From NCBI GenBank assembly GCA_017514665.1, contig JAFWIX010000005.1, forward strand, positions 26,991-90,990: a DNA stretch of 64,000 nucleotides. Reading direction: 5' to 3'. This DNA is from Candidatus Saccharimonadota bacterium (GTDB lineage: Bacteria > Patescibacteriota > Saccharimonadia > Saccharimonadales > Saccharimonadaceae). Made by a program: the position numbers and the translations under genes. Under the pieces are notes generated by a model, which saw nothing but the letters and a program-made list of their open reading frames with translations, did no database searches and was not told where the DNA came from. Below are positions 19,708-49,552 of this stretch, one piece after another (the stretch's first letter is position 1; each line of letters begins with the position of its first letter).

Positions 19708-19794
19708 GGGCGAGTGGCGGAATTGGTAGACGCGCTAGACTCAAAATCTGGTTCTTTCACGAGAGTAAGGGTTCAAGTCCCTTCTCGCCCACCA
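19708..19794 (+). tRNA. tRNA-Leu(CAA)
   Basis: GGGCGAG acceptor stem, anticodon loop CTCAAAA, long variable arm, GTTCAAG T-loop, encoded CCA. Confidence 0.97.
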
Positions 19795-30699: not shown

Positions 30700-30776
30700 T
30701 GGTGACTCCTGCGGGATTCGAACCCGCGATTTTCTGGATGAGAACCAGACGTCCTAAACCACTAGACGAAGGAGCC
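30700..30776 (-). tRNA. tRNA-Glu(CTC)
   Basis: Reverse complement folds to a cloverleaf: GGCTCCT acceptor, anticodon loop TTCTCAT, TTCGAAT, CCA. Confidence 0.97.
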
Positions 30777-39513: not shown

Positions 39514-39590
39514 GGTTCCTTAGCTCAGTTGGCTAGAGCGTACGATTCACATTCGTAAGGTCACAGGTTCGAGCCCTGTAGGAACCACCA
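39514..39590 (+). tRNA. tRNA-Val(CAC)
   Basis: GGTTCCT acceptor, anticodon loop TTCACAT, GTTCGAG, CCA. Confidence 0.97.
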
Positions 39591-45858: not shown

Positions 45859-46770
45859 TTATGCCAGACCCCATTGGTTCATCCCCAGCGCCCTAATCTG
45901 CCCCTTAATTTCGAGCATCGTCACCGCTTGATTGAACTCTGCCACATCAATGTCGAGTGTCTTTATAATTTCTTCACCATCCCTGACGCCCTGATTTATT
46001 ACCCGTAAAATTGCCGTTTCCAACTCCGTATCACCCATCAATAGTTTCTTTTGCCGTTTTTTCGCACCAGGGAAGAGTAACGACGTTACATCATCCAGAC
46101 AAGTGTATGGCATTGCCCCCTGACGAATTAACCGATTACACCCCATCGACACCGGTCTTGTAATATCGCCCGGCACCGCCAATAAATCTCGCCCCTGTTC
46201 TAGGGCGTGCATTGCGGTATTTAAAGCCCCACTTTTCATCGCCGCTTCTACTATTACTACCACATCTGCTAGTCCCGAAATCAACCGATTACGCTCGAGA
46301 AAACTCACTTTATGTAATACTTGTGCATTTTGGGCATATTCACTCATAATGCAACCATTCTTGGCTAAAATTTCCTCGGCCAATTTAATATTGCCTCTTG
46401 GATGAATTTGGTCAATCGGTGTTCCCAATACCGCCACTGTTACGCCATTCGCCGCCACCGCACCATGATGCGCTGCCGCATCTATACCATATGCCAAACC
46501 CGAAATCACTATCACTCCCATTCGTGCTAATTCGTAAGCTAATTGATACGCCACCTCTTCACCATATTTCGTACAATGCCTAGAGCCCACTATTGCTACA
46601 CATTTCGGCCGTCTGTCAAACCCATTCAAAACCACATTTTCCGGCATTTTTCCATAGAAATACAACATTTTAGGCTTAACCGCAATAGAGTTTAACACCT
46701 CTGTAAAATTACCCTCTTGGGGTAGAATATGGTTGATTTTTTGAAAAAAGTGTGAAAAAAGTGTTGACAT
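45859..46770 (-). CDS. dprA: DNA processing protein DprA
   Basis: VAIVGSR, ISGLAYGIDAAAH, FLERNRLISGL, SGALNTA; SD AGGAG. Confidence 0.94.
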   Translation of the reverse strand: MSTLFSHFFQKINHILPQEGNFTEVLNSIAVKPKMLYFYGKMPENVVLNGFDRRPKCVAIVGSRHCTKYGEEVAYQLAYELARMGVIVISGLAYGIDAAAHHGAVAANGVTVAVLGTPIDQIHPRGNIKLAEEILAKNGCIMSEYAQNAQVLHKVSFLERNRLISGLADVVVIVEAAMKSGALNTAMHALEQGRDLLAVPGDITRPVSMGCNRLIRQGAMPYTCLDDVTSLLFPGAKKRQKKLLMGDTELETAILRVINQGVRDGEEIIKTLDIDVAEFNQAVTMLEIKGQIRALGMNQWGLA

Positions 46771-46792
46771 TTTATCTCCTGTGTGCTATAAT
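46764..46792 (+). promoter_or_regulatory. Perfect consensus sigma70 promoter driving a non-coding transcript
   Basis: TTGACA-17-TATAAT with extended TG; no ORF follows. Confidence 0.8.
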
Positions 46793-46799
46793 TTTACTT

Positions 46800-47073
46800 A
46801 GATGGGGTCCTAGACCTCATACCGCACCTCAAAAACTTTTTAATCTTTACAGATTGCGTGTTTTTAAAGTTCCTCCTTTTACTTCTTATTTTTAAAAAGT
46901 ATTACCTCCACTTTTTATCAAAGGTCTAAAACTTTAAAAACATAGCAATCCCTATAACCGGCGGACCCCGGATGTGTGAGGTGGGTCGCGCTCCGGAGTA
47001 TCCGGTGTCGCTAGGCGATGTGTTGTAGGGTAAAAAAACCCTAGGTGATGCCCACCCTTACCTAGGGTTTTTT
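46800..47073 (+). ncRNA. Candidate structured sRNA (6S-like long hairpin plus 3' stems)
   Basis: GGGGTCC(46804)/GGACCCC(46963) closing stem; 12-bp GTTTTTAAAGTT/AACTTTAAAAAC inner stem; ends at a terminator. Confidence 0.55.
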
Positions 47074-47170
47074 GATGCTTGGTTTTTAAACCAAACTCTG
47101 TTCAGTAAGAAACAGAAGGAGGAGTTTAAGGTACGATCGCCCCTAAAGTGCCCCTGTTAGACGCGATACG
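47032..47170 (-). ncRNA. Candidate ~140-nt sRNA convergent with the plus-strand sRNA
   Basis: TGATATAAT -10 at 47184-47176; hairpins ATCGC/GCGAT and AAACTC..GAGTTT; shares the terminator. Confidence 0.45.
47033..47073. terminator. Bidirectional intrinsic terminator
   Basis: Perfect 14-bp palindrome AAAAAACCCTAGGT / ACCTAGGGTTTTTT. Confidence 0.85.
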
Positions 47171-47263
47171 CCGCCATTATATCACACGCGTCAACCAGAA
47201 CCAAGCACTAGCTTGATATTTTTATTTTTTGCCAAAAAATCTTTTTCGTGTTATTTTATAACT

Positions 47264-49552
47264 ATGCCAAAAAATCTCGTCATCGTCGAGTCTCCTGCCA
47301 AAGCTAAGACTATTGAAAAATATCTTGGCGCTGATTTTAAAGTTTTATCATCGGTAGGGCACATTCGCAAGGACACAAAAATCGACCCTAAGCACGATTT
47401 TGCCGTTACTTACGAAATCGACCCCGATCATGCCAAAATTGTTTCTGAACTCAAAAAAGCCGTCAAATCCGCCAAGACTGTCTGGCTCGCTACCGATGAA
47501 GACCGCGAGGGGGAATCAATCTCTTGGCATCTAAGCGAAGTGTTAAATCTACCAAAAAACACTCATCGTATCACTTTTCATGAAATTACTGAGCCTGCGC
47601 TCGAGGAAGCCATCAAACACCCTCGTACCATCGATCAATTCATGGTTGAAAGTCAACAGGCTCGCCAGTCTCTAGATATGTTAGTGGGTTATGATTTATC
47701 TGGCGTAATTCGCAAAAAAGTCCCTGGCGCCAAGTCGGCTGGTCGCGTTCAATCACCCGCCGTCAAATTAGTAGTTGAAAAAGAACGCGAAATTGAGAAA
47801 TTTGATAAAACTTTTAATTTCAAAATCACCGGTGAGTTTGACAATTTTACTGCTACCGCCGAAACCACACCAGATACCGCCGAAGAGGTTAAGGCACTTT
47901 TTGAGAGCCTCAAAGATGCCAAATTCACAGTCACTAAAATTGAAAAAACTGAAAGTACCAAAGCCAATCCTATTCCTCTCACCACTGCTGCTATGCAAAT
48001 TGAGGCTAGCAATAAACTTGGTTTTTCTGCTAGCACCACTATGCGCGCCGCTCAGGCTCTTTACCAAGCCGGTTTGATTACTTATCACCGCACTGACTCT
48101 CTGAATCTTAGCAATCAAGCTATCGCTAGCATGGCTAATTATATCGAAAAGTCATTCGGCAAGAATTATCTCAAGACTCGTCATTTCAAAACCAAATCCG
48201 CTAGCGCTCAAGAAGCTCATGAGGCCATTCGCCCCACCGATATTACCCGCAACACCGCCGGCAAAAATGATTTTGAGAAAAAACTTTATCATCTCATCTG
48301 GTCACGCACTCTCGCCACACAAATGGCCAACGCCCGCATCGCGAGAACTACTATTTCACTCACTGCGACAAAAACGTTTGCATTTATCGCTAAAGGTGAA
48401 ATAGTTATCTTTGACGGTTTTCTCAAAGTTTATGGTAAGAGTAAGGACACTGAGCTGCCAGAATTAAAAAAAGGCGACGTGCTGACACCAAACGCCATTA
48501 TTGCACATCAAACCTTTGCCAAACCCCCCGCTCGTTATACTGAAGGCTCGCTTGTTAAAAAGCTCGAGGAGCTCGGCATCGGCCGCCCTAGTACTTATGC
48601 TGGTATTTTATCTGCTATCCAGGCACGCAATTACGTCCATAAAGGTGAAGGCGAGGGACGCGAGCGCAAAGTTATCGAAATCAAACTCGAAAATCATAAA
48701 ATCACCGAGTCTAAAGTCCCTGAAAAGGCTGGCGCTACCAAAGGCAAACTCTTGCCCACGCCAATTGGCGAATTAATCAGTGATTTTCTCGATAAACACT
48801 TTACTGATATTGTCGATTACGGTTTCACCGCCGATATTGAAAAACAGTTAGACCTCATTGCCGAACAAAAACTCGGCCGTGTTGAGATGCTAAAAAAATT
48901 CTATGGTCCATTCGAAAAATCCGTTGCTGCTTCCGATAACGCCGAACGCTTCAACGGCGCCATCAAACTTGGTGATGATCCCAAGACCAAAGAACCAATC
49001 TATGCCAAAATCGGCAAAAATGGTGGCTTTATCCAACTTGGCGACAACGAAAAAGAAACCGGCAAGAAACCGCGCTTTGCGCCACTTCCCAACGACGAAA
49101 CCATCAAGACTGTCACCCTAGAGCAAGCCCTAAAACAATTGACTTTACCGGCTCTACCACGCAGTCTCGGTCAAGCCAAAGACGGCACCGAAATCATCGC
49201 CGCCGCTGGTCCCTTCGGTCCCTATATCAAAGCCGGCAAATACAATATCCCGATTAAAGATTACGACCCTTATACTATCTCGCTCAAAGATGCTGAACTA
49301 ATTTATCAAAAGAAAATTGATTCTATCATTGCCGATTGGGGCGATATTATGATTATCAATGGCGCTTATGGGCCATATATCAAAGGTCCTGGTCGTCGCA
49401 ACAACCTGCGTATTGGCAAAGACGAAGATCCTAAGAAAATTACTAAAGAAGAAGCTGAAAAACGTCTCAAAAACAAGAAAAATACACCTACGCGTCGCGG
49501 CAAACGTGGTGCCAAAAAGGCCAGAAAATCCAAAAAATCTACCACAAAATAG
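47264..49552 (+). CDS. topA: DNA topoisomerase I
   Basis: LVIVESPAKAKTI, LATDEDREGE, AGRVQS, ITYHRTDS; basic C-terminal tail; start MPKNL at 47264. Confidence 0.96.
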   Translation: MPKNLVIVESPAKAKTIEKYLGADFKVLSSVGHIRKDTKIDPKHDFAVTYEIDPDHAKIVSELKKAVKSAKTVWLATDEDREGESISWHLSEVLNLPKNTHRITFHEITEPALEEAIKHPRTIDQFMVESQQARQSLDMLVGYDLSGVIRKKVPGAKSAGRVQSPAVKLVVEKEREIEKFDKTFNFKITGEFDNFTATAETTPDTAEEVKALFESLKDAKFTVTKIEKTESTKANPIPLTTAAMQIEASNKLGFSASTTMRAAQALYQAGLITYHRTDSLNLSNQAIASMANYIEKSFGKNYLKTRHFKTKSASAQEAHEAIRPTDITRNTAGKNDFEKKLYHLIWSRTLATQMANARIARTTISLTATKTFAFIAKGEIVIFDGFLKVYGKSKDTELPELKKGDVLTPNAIIAHQTFAKPPARYTEGSLVKKLEELGIGRPSTYAGILSAIQARNYVHKGEGEGRERKVIEIKLENHKITESKVPEKAGATKGKLLPTPIGELISDFLDKHFTDIVDYGFTADIEKQLDLIAEQKLGRVEMLKKFYGPFEKSVAASDNAERFNGAIKLGDDPKTKEPIYAKIGKNGGFIQLGDNEKETGKKPRFAPLPNDETIKTVTLEQALKQLTLPALPRSLGQAKDGTEIIAAAGPFGPYIKAGKYNIPIKDYDPYTISLKDAELIYQKKIDSIIADWGDIMIINGAYGPYIKGPGRRNNLRIGKDEDPKKITKEEAEKRLKNKKNTPTRRGKRGAKKARKSKKSTTK

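What the first reader, a model, noticed from the sequence alone, without database searches (positions are those of the whole stretch)
46764..47184. Convergent pair of promoter-driven small RNAs sharing one bidirectional terminator between dprA and topA
A perfect TTGACA-17-TG.TATAAT promoter fires a ~270-nt plus-strand RNA. Its first ~170 nt form a closing stem (46804-46810/46963-46969), an asymmetric open region and a long inner stem (46853-46871/46930-46949), which is 6S-like in size and shape. TAGACCT/AGGTCTA offers an alternative or pseudoknot pairing, and a CCGGAT/ATCCGG hairpin follows. A TGATATAAT promoter fires a ~140-nt RNA the opposite way. Both end in the same 14-bp palindrome, so their 3' ends are complementary, as in type I toxin-antitoxin or sRNA/anti-sRNA pairs, but no SD-led toxin ORF is visible. 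The plus promoter's -35 overlaps the dprA start codon, suggesting coupling to competence.
Basis: partly seen in the sequence, partly recalled or inferred. Interest (0 to 1): 0.6.

Follow-up and report, generated by a model that had tools for sequence, protein, structure and literature searches.

The report
New structured RNA gene beside dprA
Between dprA and topA lies a stand-alone gene for a roughly 275-base folded RNA that matches no catalogued RNA family, is kept next to dprA throughout the Saccharibacteria, and displays a copy of the ribosomal RNA tail that normally recognises messenger RNAs.

Summary
A perfect sigma-70 promoter (46764-46792) and an intrinsic terminator (47032-47073) bracket a ~275-nt non-coding RNA gene. 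Homologues (250-500 nt) are single-copy. They occur in 41 of 45 sampled genomes of the order by covariance model, and the 4 misses were recovered by synteny. They also occur in 20 of 20 other families of the class and in two families outside it, always divergent from dprA. It does not support the proposed closing stem, so the RNA is not 6S-shaped. No Rfam 15 family matches. It is not SRP RNA, because Ffh and FtsY are missing. The most conserved element is a hairpin loop (46901-46909) that copies the 16S rRNA 3' tail (anti-Shine-Dalgarno). My best guess, which is inferred, is a trans-acting RNA that acts on translation initiation, by masking Shine-Dalgarno sites or by titrating a protein that binds the 16S tail. 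The minus-strand "sRNA" is doubtful: its promoter-like box is shared only with the closest relative and looks like an inverted relic of a topA promoter. No expression data could be obtained.

The parts
46764..46792 (+). Promoter of the RNA gene: -35 TTGACA (46764-69), TG (46784-85), -10 TATAAT (46787-92). The spacer carries CTCC (46777-80), which is the Shine-Dalgarno box of dprA on the other strand.
   Evidence: 12 of 12 matches, TG present; 1 of 18 perfect sites in the genome; conserved in relatives
46799..47073 (+). Predicted primary transcript of the non-coding RNA, about 275 nt. The start is inferred from the -10 box and the end from the terminator T-run.
   Evidence: MFE -92.6 kcal/mol, z -5.61; no ORF of 20 aa or more in the conserved core; homologues
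46804..46818 (+). P1, a local 5' hairpin (GGGGUC-cua-GACCUC).
   Evidence: compensated variation among genus members; also in the MFE fold
46821..46830 (+). Conserved single-stranded joiner ACCGCACCUC. Its core GCACCU is kept across the order and reads GCACCUCC in another family of the class.
46842..46855 (+). P2 hairpin, reduced here to AAUCU-uuac-AGAUU. In relatives it is a 14-bp or branched hairpin.
46852..46871 (+).
   Evidence: 84% of cells paired, 15 of 18 pairs compensatory, 0 of 500 shuffles
46894..46916 (+). Hairpin with stem 46894-46900/46910-46916 and 9-nt loop AUUACCUCC (46901-46909). The loop is identical to the 3' tail of this order's 16S rRNA (anti-Shine-Dalgarno). This is the most conserved element of the family.
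   Evidence: stem of 3 bp or more in 47 of 47, 4 bp or more in 46 of 47, with compensated variants; 16S tail; kept across the class and beyond
46930..46950 (+). P3, 3' strand
46950..46958 (+). P5, 5' strand (CCCUAUAAC)
   Evidence: 9 pairs, 100% paired, 4 with compensatory change; the alignment was fitted to the model
46960..47019 (+). Variable domain enclosed by P5. It holds P6 (46960-69 with about 46984-90), the G-rich Shine-Dalgarno-like GUGAGGUGGG (46976-85), hairpin P7 (46991-47007) and a small hairpin (47007-19). In relatives this domain ranges from about 30 to about 200 nt.
47022..47030 (+). P5, 3' strand (GUUGUAGGG)
47032..47073 (.). Bidirectional intrinsic terminator with stems 47038-46/47060-68 flanked by A7 and T6. 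The 13-nt loop GAUGCCCACCCUU (47047-59) is conserved and is complementary to GGUGGG at 46980-85, a possible pseudoknot. The loop and its partner do not vary within the order, so covariation cannot test the pairing.
47031..47184 (-). Hypothetical minus-strand unit: an extended -10-like TGATATAAT (47176-84) and a transcript of about 139 nt running to the shared terminator. An unpaired CUCCUCCUU lies at 47114-47124.
   Evidence: sequence; not listed by the promoter scan; conserved only in L002; aligns with the plus-strand topA promoter of L003; fold z -4.0, much of it from the terminator
45859..46770 (-). dprA (DNA_processg_A), the divergent neighbour
   Evidence: E 1.7e-65
47264..49552 (+). topA, with its own promoter-like site at 47229-47257 ending 6 nt before the ATG. 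It is probably leaderless.

Best explanation
Window 46799-47073 (+) is an independent gene for a highly structured, trans-acting non-coding RNA. It belongs to an RNA family that I could not find described. The family is single-copy, always transcribed divergently from dprA, near-universal in the class Saccharimonadia (Candidatus Saccharibacteria) and present in at least two other Patescibacteria families.

Shown here:
- promoter, terminator and absence of coding potential;
- conservation across the class;
- helices P3 and P5 and a hairpin stem supported by compensatory change;
- a modular variable domain.

Inferred, not shown: the working part is the hairpin loop 46901-46909. This loop reproduces the 3' tail of the organism's own 16S rRNA (anti-Shine-Dalgarno). 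It is assisted by a second CACCU(C) element, a G-rich Shine-Dalgarno-like segment and a C-rich terminator loop. I propose that the abundant RNA acts on translation initiation in one of two ways. It may pair with Shine-Dalgarno regions of mRNAs and so compete with 30S subunits. Or it may offer a decoy or docking site to a protein that normally recognises the 16S tail or an SD/anti-SD duplex, as bS21 does on OLE RNA. The minus-strand 'partner' is probably a lineage-specific by-product and not part of the system.
For: GENE
- Perfect promoter and terminator.
- No ORF of 20 aa or more in the core.
- MFE z-score -5.61.

CONSERVATION
- blastn finds the core in 21 of 24 same-genus genomes.
- CM R1 gives one hit each in 54 of 151 genomes of the order.
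- CM R2 hits 41 of 45 order genomes. The 4 missed genomes carry the RNA beside dprA.
- 20 of 20 other families of the class carry it upstream of dprA.
- Outside the class, CM R3 hits 6 of 142 genomes, in families f80 and f125. A synteny scan finds 2 of 40.

STRUCTURE
- P3: 15 of 18 pairs compensatory, 84% paired against 28-47% when slid.
- P5: 9 of 9 pairs fully paired, 4 compensatory (that alignment was fitted to the model).
- Hairpin stem present in 47 of 47 sequences.

MIMICRY OF THE 16S TAIL
- The loop AUUACCUCC equals the 16S tail ...GGAUUACCUCCUUU read in two genomes of the order. G000 itself carries that tail at C5:115-129.
- The class consensus CACCCUCCUUU differs from the 16S CACCUCCUUU by one extra C.
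- The base before ACC follows the 16S variant in 15 of 18 genomes outside the order. The U-type tail is found in 20 of 46 order genomes and the C-type in 0 of 46. In family f151 the counts are reversed, 0 of 25 and 14 of 25.

CONTEXT
- Shine-Dalgarno boxes are used in this genome: 197 of 581 crude ORFs against 4% background.
- A bS21 gene is present.
- Precedent: OLE RNA carries an anti-SD mimic bound by bS21 (PMC12054373, passages read).

NOT A topA LEADER
- topA has its own promoter, and the downstream genes vary.
Against: - No transcript data. No RNA run holds the stretch, so abundance, ends and even expression are inferred from sequence signals alone.
- The mimicry argument rests on resemblance. 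The CCUCC core never varies, so no covariation can show whether it pairs in trans, pairs inside the RNA or binds a protein.
- G-rich segments inside the RNA (GAGGU, GGUGGG, GGGGG) could pair with the loop.
- The 15 of 18 agreement between loop and 16S variant is among related genomes and may reflect very few events. 3 of 18 disagree.
- Some family members have altered loops (CCCCUUCCCC in G352, UCUCCCUCC in G422).
- The elaborate conserved fold exceeds what a simple pairing sRNA needs.
- The constant dprA neighbourhood is not explained by a translation role.
Confidence: 0.5

Rival explanations
1. The RNA is a scaffold, ribozyme or ligand-binding RNA whose C-rich loops (ACCUCC, CCCACCC, CACCU) serve only as intramolecular tertiary contacts with its G-rich segments. 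On this reading the likeness to the 16S tail is incidental and the function has nothing to do with translation. It could concern competence or DNA processing, given the dprA link.
For: - Complex, modular fold with expansion domains, like RNase P, raiA or OLE RNAs.
- The terminator loop CCCACC is perfectly complementary to the internal GGUGGG.
- G-rich partners for the hairpin loop exist in every lineage inspected.
- dprA synteny is invariant.
- raiA RNA offers a parallel: single copy, abundant, beside the competence gene comFC, function unknown (PMC10861870, passages read).
Against: - The loop matches the 16S tail over 9 nt here and 10 of 11 nt in the class consensus, and its flanking base tracks the 16S variant in 15 of 18 genomes.
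- The minimal versions in family f151 lack both GGUGGG and the CCCACCC loop yet keep the hairpin.
- There are more C-rich elements than G-rich partners.
Confidence: 0.25
2. It is a cis or neighbourhood regulator of dprA. The very strong divergent promoter, and here the overlap of its spacer with the dprA ribosome-binding site, would set dprA expression by promoter competition or by antisense overlap of the 5' ends. The RNA product itself would be secondary.
For: - dprA was the divergent neighbour in 10 of 10 loci tested by Pfam and lay beside the RNA in 20 of 20 further families reached through dprA.
- In this genome the dprA ATG overlaps the -35 box and its GGAG lies in the promoter spacer. 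The dprA mRNA must therefore start inside or beyond the RNA promoter.
Against: - The overlap is specific to this genus. In other families dprA starts 30-100 nt from the -35 box.
- A mere promoter effect would not conserve 250-500 nt of covarying structure, a hairpin loop and a terminator loop.
Confidence: 0.1
3. One reading: a 6S-like RNA that sequesters RNA polymerase, paired with a convergent antisense sRNA that shares the terminator (an sRNA/anti-sRNA or type I toxin-antitoxin-like module).
For: - No Rfam 6S match anywhere in the genome, so a divergent 6S is not excluded by presence elsewhere.
- The strong promoter and the size of the conserved core (about 180 nt) fit.
- An extended -10-like box on the minus strand and a truly bidirectional terminator exist.
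- The minus-strand RNA folds with z -4.0.
Against: - The ends do not pair and the proposed closing stem is not conserved.
- The architecture is P1, P2, P3 holding a hairpin, P5 holding a variable domain, and a terminator. It is not a rod with a central bubble.
- The minus-strand block is shared only with the closest relative and is absent from 19 of the 20 other same-genus genomes that carry the core.
- Its promoter-like box aligns, inverted, with the topA promoter of L003, 26 of 29 positions.
- There is no toxin ORF.
Confidence: 0.05
4. It is a long 5' leader, attenuator or riboswitch of topA.
For: - Same strand as topA and ends in a terminator.
- In 4 of the genus loci topA follows the RNA.
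Against: - The downstream gene varies: pth in 3 of 10, ABC ATPase, sigma factor, Vut_1, or none identified.
- Downstream genes carry their own TGnTAnAAT promoters, and topA appears leaderless.
- No riboswitch family matches.
Confidence: 0.02

Closest known systems
OLE RNA (P6 SD/anti-SD mimic bound by ribosomal protein bS21)
   Same: A large, conserved, structured bacterial ncRNA that contains an exact copy of the host's 16S anti-Shine-Dalgarno sequence, together with an SD-like G-rich segment in the same RNA (PMC12054373, passages read). A bS21 gene is present here.
   Different: No sequence or Rfam similarity. This RNA is about 275-500 nt, against about 600 nt for OLE as that paper states. 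Here the mimic sits in a hairpin loop, not in a duplex. The phylum differs (Patescibacteria against Bacillota). I did not search for the OapA/B/C partner genes. Binding to bS21 is untested.
raiA motif RNA (RF03072)
   Same: Single-copy and trans-acting, with its own promoter. It has many invariant nucleotides, a variable domain in two forms, and a position beside a natural-competence gene (comFC there, dprA here). Its function is unknown (PMC10861870, passages read).
   Different: RF03072 gives no match in the genome at E<=10 or in the loci. The helices and conserved motifs differ. raiA RNA is reported from Bacillota and Actinomycetota only.
C-rich-loop base-pairing sRNAs of Gram-positive bacteria (RoxS/RsaE, LhrC type; recalled, not from a call)
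   Same: Several exposed C-rich or CCUCC-like motifs that could pair with Shine-Dalgarno regions.
   Different: Those sRNAs are roughly 100-nt simple hairpin RNAs. This RNA is two to four times larger, with long-range helices, expansion domains and class-wide synteny. No target has been identified.
6S RNA (RF00013)
   Same: Strong promoter, probable high abundance, and a conserved core of about 180 nt. No other 6S candidate is present in the genome.
   Different: No closing stem formed by the two ends, no central bubble architecture, and no model match.
SRP RNA (RF00169 / RF01854)
   Same: A universal housekeeping RNA that is otherwise missing from this genome. Its size is similar to the large bacterial SRP RNA.
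   Different: No model match. The protein partners are missing: the Ffh M domain is found in 0 of 41 genomes and no SRP54-type GTPase scores over the cut-off.

Membership tests
6S RNA | Match to the Rfam 6S covariance model | tested here: not met
   RF00013: 0 matches at E<=10 in the whole genome. It is not among the hits at E<=10 in 46600-47350.
6S RNA | The 5' and 3' ends pair into a closing stem that flanks a large central bubble | tested here: not met
   The 5' end forms a local hairpin with compensated changes, and the 3' end is a terminator hairpin.
6S RNA | Binds sigma-70 holoenzyme and templates product RNAs | not testable with these tools
   Needs RNA polymerase co-purification and small-RNA sequencing.
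SRP RNA | Match to RF00169 or RF01854 (domain IV motifs) | tested here: not met
   0 of 41 relatives score over the cut-off.
SRP RNA | The partner protein Ffh is encoded | tested here: not met
   PF02978 is found in 0 of 41 genomes. PF00448 gives only a sub-threshold P-loop hit.
Type I toxin-antitoxin or convergent sRNA/anti-sRNA pair | A small toxin ORF with a ribosome-binding site | tested here: not met
   No ORF of 20 aa or more lies in the conserved core 46897-47080. The few short ORFs elsewhere in 46771-47264 have no Shine-Dalgarno box that I noted. The AGGAGG at 47119-24 is followed by no start codon.
Type I toxin-antitoxin or convergent sRNA/anti-sRNA pair | Both convergent transcription units are conserved together | tested here: not met
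   The minus-strand block is shared only with L002. It is absent from 19 of the 20 other same-genus genomes that carry the core.
Riboswitch or attenuator leader of topA | Constant cis position upstream of the regulated gene, with no separate promoter in between | tested here: not met
   Downstream genes vary. Separate promoters follow the terminator.
raiA motif RNA | Match to RF03072 | tested here: not met
   (no match at E<=10).
OLE RNA | Match to the Rfam OLE model | tested here: not met
   No Rfam family of any kind reaches E<=1 in 35 homologous loci. None reaches the gathering score in the window.
OLE-like working principle (anti-SD mimic bound by bS21) | An exact copy of the host's 16S anti-SD sequence within the RNA | tested here: met
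   The loop AUUACCUCC (46901-09) equals the 16S tail read in L199 and L200 and at G000:C5:115-129.
OLE-like working principle (anti-SD mimic bound by bS21) | Specific binding of bS21 | not testable with these tools
   A bS21 gene is present. Binding needs a biochemical assay.
The new dprA-divergent RNA family (defined here) | Strong promoter; P3 enclosing a hairpin with a (Y)ACC(C)UCC loop; P5 enclosing a variable domain; terminator; divergent dprA | tested here: met
   The window copy has every element.

The most novel reading that the evidence does not exclude
A previously unrecognised housekeeping RNA, or RNP RNA, of Saccharibacteria and some other ultrasmall Patescibacteria. On this reading the cell makes, from one of its strongest promoters, an ornate RNA carrying a free copy of its own 16S rRNA 3' tail. 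The RNA would govern translation initiation globally. It could do so by titrating a protein that binds the 16S tail (bS21, Era or a maturation nuclease), or by masking Shine-Dalgarno sites so that leaderless mRNAs such as topA are favoured. It may couple this control to the competence/DprA programme in organisms that have also lost the SRP system.
Probability: 0.3. Interest if true: 0.85.

Novelty: categorically new. Interest (0 to 1): 0.72.

Why it matters
Large, highly conserved bacterial RNAs are few, and almost every one whose job is known does something fundamental. Orphan classes such as OLE and raiA are actively studied for that reason.

This RNA is a candidate for another such class. 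It occurs in the episymbiotic Saccharibacteria, whose 0.6-1 Mb genomes keep very little that is dispensable. PGAP finds only 2 ncRNAs in a closed Nanosynbacter genome (PMC8830319, passage read).

It is directly testable. Cultured, naturally transformable strains exist (PMC10633639, passages read). The predicted working part is a 9-nt loop. An OLE/bS21 precedent also offers a concrete biochemical assay.

"New" here means two things: no match in Rfam 15, and no report in the searches listed under Tried and rejected. The function is inferred, not shown.

Tried and rejected
RFAM. The gathering-score scan of the whole window found only 3 tRNAs. E-value scans of 46600-47350, of 15 genus loci and of 20 order loci gave nothing sensible.

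KNOWN RNAs IN THE GENOME. RNase P and tmRNA are present elsewhere. SRP small, SRP large, 6S and raiA were not found.

EXPRESSION. The look-up of sequencing runs listed no RNA holder.

LITERATURE. The following searches found no report of this RNA:
- Saccharibacteria + noncoding RNA;
- Saccharibacteria + signal recognition particle;
- Patescibacteria + 6S RNA;
- candidate phyla radiation + structured + ncRNA + covariation;
- Saccharibacteria/Ffh/FtsY;
- Saccharibacteria + dprA;
- anti-Shine-Dalgarno/mimic terms;
- a six-term TM7/RNA motif search.
Weinberg 2017 mentions only the lysM-TM7 motif (passages). The Cell 2023 genetics paper has no ncRNA, ffh or SRP term in its main text (passages). In PMC10768705 the SRP genes mentioned carry APY09 locus tags, which I take to be the host's.

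MODEL SENSITIVITY. The negative result of CM R2 outside the order turned out to be a sensitivity failure. Synteny found the RNA in 20 of 20 other families. "Not found" outside the class is therefore weak evidence.

SPECIFIC mRNA TARGETS. I looked for targets by extended complementarity to the loop. This gave only ordinary ribosome-binding sites and a second copy of the hairpin, so I did not pursue it.

PSEUDOKNOT. A pairing between GGUGGG and the terminator loop was considered. Both partners are invariant within the order, so it remains unproven.

16S IN G000. The first regex and RF00177 found no 16S in G000. The tail was later found at a contig start.

UNPUBLISHED GENOME. G057 (locus L034) is 1 of 34 rows of A3 and 1 of 32 rows of A4. 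It therefore entered model R2 and the counts.
Full report
WHAT IS IN THE SEQUENCE

The 494-bp gap lies between dprA (minus strand, 45859-46770; Pfam DNA_processg_A, E 1.7e-65) and topA (plus strand, ATG at 47264).

It opens with a perfect TTGACA-17-TATAAT promoter carrying the TG of an extended -10 box (46764-46792). The organism plainly uses this consensus. There are 18 perfect sites in 670 kb, against about 0.08 expected by my arithmetic.

About 275 nt downstream lies a textbook bidirectional terminator. It has seven A, a 9-bp G+C-rich stem, a 13-nt loop and six T (47032-47073). No ORF of 20 aa or more lies in the conserved core. The stretch folds far better than shuffles, -92.6 kcal/mol with z -5.61.

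WHO HAS IT

The genome is a 670-kb, 10-contig assembly. A pattern drawn from the conserved core hit 120 or more records titled Candidatus Saccharibacteria, Nanosyncoccus or Saccharimonadales.

- blastn found the core (window 46897-47080) in 21 of 24 same-genus genomes and in 0 of 16 genomes of other families of the order.
- A covariance model of the 3' domain (R1) found exactly one hit each in 54 of 151 genomes of the order.
- A model of the 5' domain (R2) found it in 41 of 45 order genomes of a class-wide draw, but in only 2 of 105 outside the order.

That low outside figure was a sensitivity problem. I located dprA in the class (132 of 151 genomes) and read the DNA upstream of it in 20 genomes of other families. 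All 20 showed the same unit: promoter, long helix, C-rich hairpin, second helix with a variable insert, and terminator. 18 were found by a motif search and 2 by eye.

The 4 same-family genomes that R2 missed also carry it. One is cut by a contig end and three have variant loops.

Outside the class, a third model (R3) found it in 6 of 142 genomes, 5 of 6 in family f80 and one in f125. A synteny scan found 2 of 40. Given the earlier sensitivity failure, absence elsewhere in the phylum is not established.

dprA was the divergent upstream neighbour in all 10 order-level loci tested by Pfam. The downstream neighbour varies.

STRUCTURE

RNA lengths run from about 250 to about 500 nt.

On a MAFFT alignment of 32 5' domains (A4), the long-range helix that corresponds to 46852-46871/46930-46950 has 84% of cells paired against 28-47% when partners are slid. 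15 of 18 pairs carry compensatory change, and 0 of 500 shuffles reach the observed values.
- P5 (46950-58/47022-30) is paired in every sequence, and 4 of its 9 pairs change in a compensated way. The alignment was fitted to the model.
- The 5' end forms a local hairpin with compensated changes. Neither are the TAGACCT/AGGTCTA and CCGGAT/ATCCGG pairings, which relatives do not keep.
- Inside P3 sits a hairpin whose stem is present in 47 of 47 sequences. It is 4 bp or longer in 46 of them, with variants such as GCGU/ACGC replacing AAGU/ACUU. Its loop is almost invariant.
- P5 encloses a domain that ranges from about 30 to about 200 nt in at least two architectures.
- This genome and its closest relative have a reduced form in which P2 and an extra hairpin have shrunk.

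Overall this is the anatomy of a multi-domain functional RNA, not of a 6S rod.

WHAT IT IS NOT

- No Rfam 15 family matches at the gathering score, or at E<=1 to 10 in 36 homologous loci.
- RNase P RNA and tmRNA are elsewhere in the genome.
- SRP RNA is undetectable (0 of 41 relatives over the cut-off). This RNA is not its replacement, because the proteins are missing too. The Ffh M domain is found in 0 of 41 genomes, and no SRP54-type GTPase scores over the cut-off.
- 6S and raiA models find nothing.
- It is not a topA leader. In relatives topA has an extended -10 box 6-7 nt before its ATG, and other loci have other genes downstream with their own promoters.

THE CONSERVED LOOP COPIES THE 16S TAIL

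The hairpin loop reads AUUACCUCC here (46901-46909). It reads (U/C)UACCCUCC in the rest of the order, and (N)CACCCUCC followed by UUU in most other families.

The 16S rRNA of two genomes of the order ends ...GGAUUACCUCCUUU. G000's own copy of that tail lies at a contig start. The loop in this genome is therefore a 9-nt exact copy of the anti-Shine-Dalgarno tail. The class consensus differs from the tail by one inserted C.

The order has an unusual U where most bacteria have C:
- The U form is found in 20 of 46 order genomes and the C form in 0 of 46.
- In family f151 the counts are 0 of 25 and 14 of 25.

The RNA loop follows this variant. Among the 18 genomes outside the order where both could be read, 15 agree and 3 do not. 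These genomes are kin, so this may amount to only one or two events. I treat it as suggestive.

Other elements of the same flavour:
- A second element, GCACCU(C/U), is also anti-SD-like and reads GCACCUCC in one family.
- A G-rich GAGGUG/GGUGGG segment resembles a Shine-Dalgarno box.
- The terminator loop (CCCACCC or CCACCU) is complementary to that G-rich segment.

Shine-Dalgarno boxes are in real use in this genome: 197 of 581 crude ORFs against 4% background. A bS21 gene is present.

The one precedent I found is OLE RNA. Its P6 carries an exact anti-SD copy paired to an SD-like strand and binds bS21 (PMC12054373, passages read). That Era's KH domain binds the same 16S tail is my recollection, not a result of any call.

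MOST LIKELY MECHANISM AND ITS STATUS

Shown: an independent, conserved, structured RNA gene.

Inferred: high expression, from promoter strength, and trans action, from the variable downstream genes and the single copy.

Proposed: the exposed anti-SD copy either pairs with SD regions of mRNAs or acts as a decoy or dock for a protein that recognises the 16S tail or an SD/anti-SD duplex.

I put about 0.95 on the first layer and about 0.3-0.35 on the translation-initiation mechanism. The main rival, about 0.25, is that the C-rich loops are only internal tertiary contacts of a scaffold or ribozyme whose role relates to its constant neighbour dprA.

THE MINUS-STRAND HALF

TGATATAAT is at 47176-47184 on the minus strand. 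It has no -35 box, and the scan did not call it a promoter.

The block 47110-47215 is conserved only between this genome and its closest relative, L002. The other same-genus genomes have unrelated sequence or go straight to the next gene.

Read on the minus strand, the box and 20 nt upstream align with the plus-strand topA promoter of L003: 26 of 29 positions, score 36 against a shuffle maximum of 25. The alignment with L008, L010 and L015 does not extend beyond the -10 box. An inverted relic of a promoter is therefore the simplest reading, supported by one relative.

If transcribed, the RNA of about 139 nt would share the terminator and expose CUCCUCCUU. That is curious, but I have no evidence that it is made. 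No toxin ORF exists. The AGGAGG at 47119-24 is followed by GTA here, and by a GTG with an 8-codon frame in L002.

LINK TO dprA

In this genus the dprA ATG overlaps the -35 box, and its GGAG lies in the promoter spacer (46777-80 on the plus strand reads CTCC). The dprA mRNA must therefore begin within or beyond the RNA promoter, so the two units probably interfere with each other.

In other families the genes are 30-100 nt further apart. Overlap is thus not the conserved feature. Adjacency is. Why adjacency is kept across a whole class is unexplained.

LIMITS

- No RNA-seq run holds the stretch.
- Supplements were closed.
- E-values from my models are rough.
- The first-look filter of the genome search scores only about 18 candidates per genome, so "no match" counts are lower bounds.
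- One unpublished genome (G057, locus L034) is a single row in alignments A3 and A4.

Noticed in passing
whole genome G000 and 40 relatives (not a window feature): The SRP system appears to be missing. No SRP RNA was found (RF00169, RF01854). The Ffh M domain (PF02978) is found in 0 of 41 genomes of the order, and PF00448 gives no hit over the cut-off in G000. All controls were positive. My searches found no paper stating this for Saccharibacteria.
   Followed up: partly
G000:C1:1810-1850 (about 25 kb upstream of the window start; outside the window): A second copy of the anti-SD hairpin, a 22-nt exact repeat of window 46893-46914, sits inside a longer stem. It lies in a roughly 300-nt intergenic region upstream of a 60-codon ORF. 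It could be a paralogous small RNA or a leader.
   Followed up: partly
16S rRNA 3' end: G000:C5:115-129; L199; L200: The order carries GGAUUACCUCCUUU in place of the canonical GGAUCACCUCCUUU. The U form is in 20 of 46 order genomes and the C form in 0 of 46. Most other families of the class have the C form.
   Followed up: yes
window 47229-47266: topA seems to be leaderless. A TG-extended -10-like box ends 6 nt before the ATG, with no Shine-Dalgarno box. The same arrangement is seen in L003, L008, L010 and L015.
   Followed up: partly
window 47110-47215: This block is conserved only with the closest relative. It holds an orphan AGAAGGAGGAG (47114-24) with no start codon here (GTA), but a GTG and an 8-codon frame in L002. 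Two small hairpins lie just upstream of it, at about 47085-47113.
   Followed up: partly
L006 and L013 (same genus): The terminal hairpin with the conserved loop is duplicated in tandem. In L006 the first copy lacks a T-run.
   Followed up: no
L055 and L060 (same order): Large insertions sit inside the RNA gene, about 150-200 extra nt between P3 and P5 or within P2. The nature of the inserts is unknown.
   Followed up: no
window 19708-19794, 30700-30776, 39514-39590: Three tRNA genes, Leu-CAA, Glu-CTC and Val-CAC. They are the only Rfam hits at the gathering score in the window.
   Followed up: no
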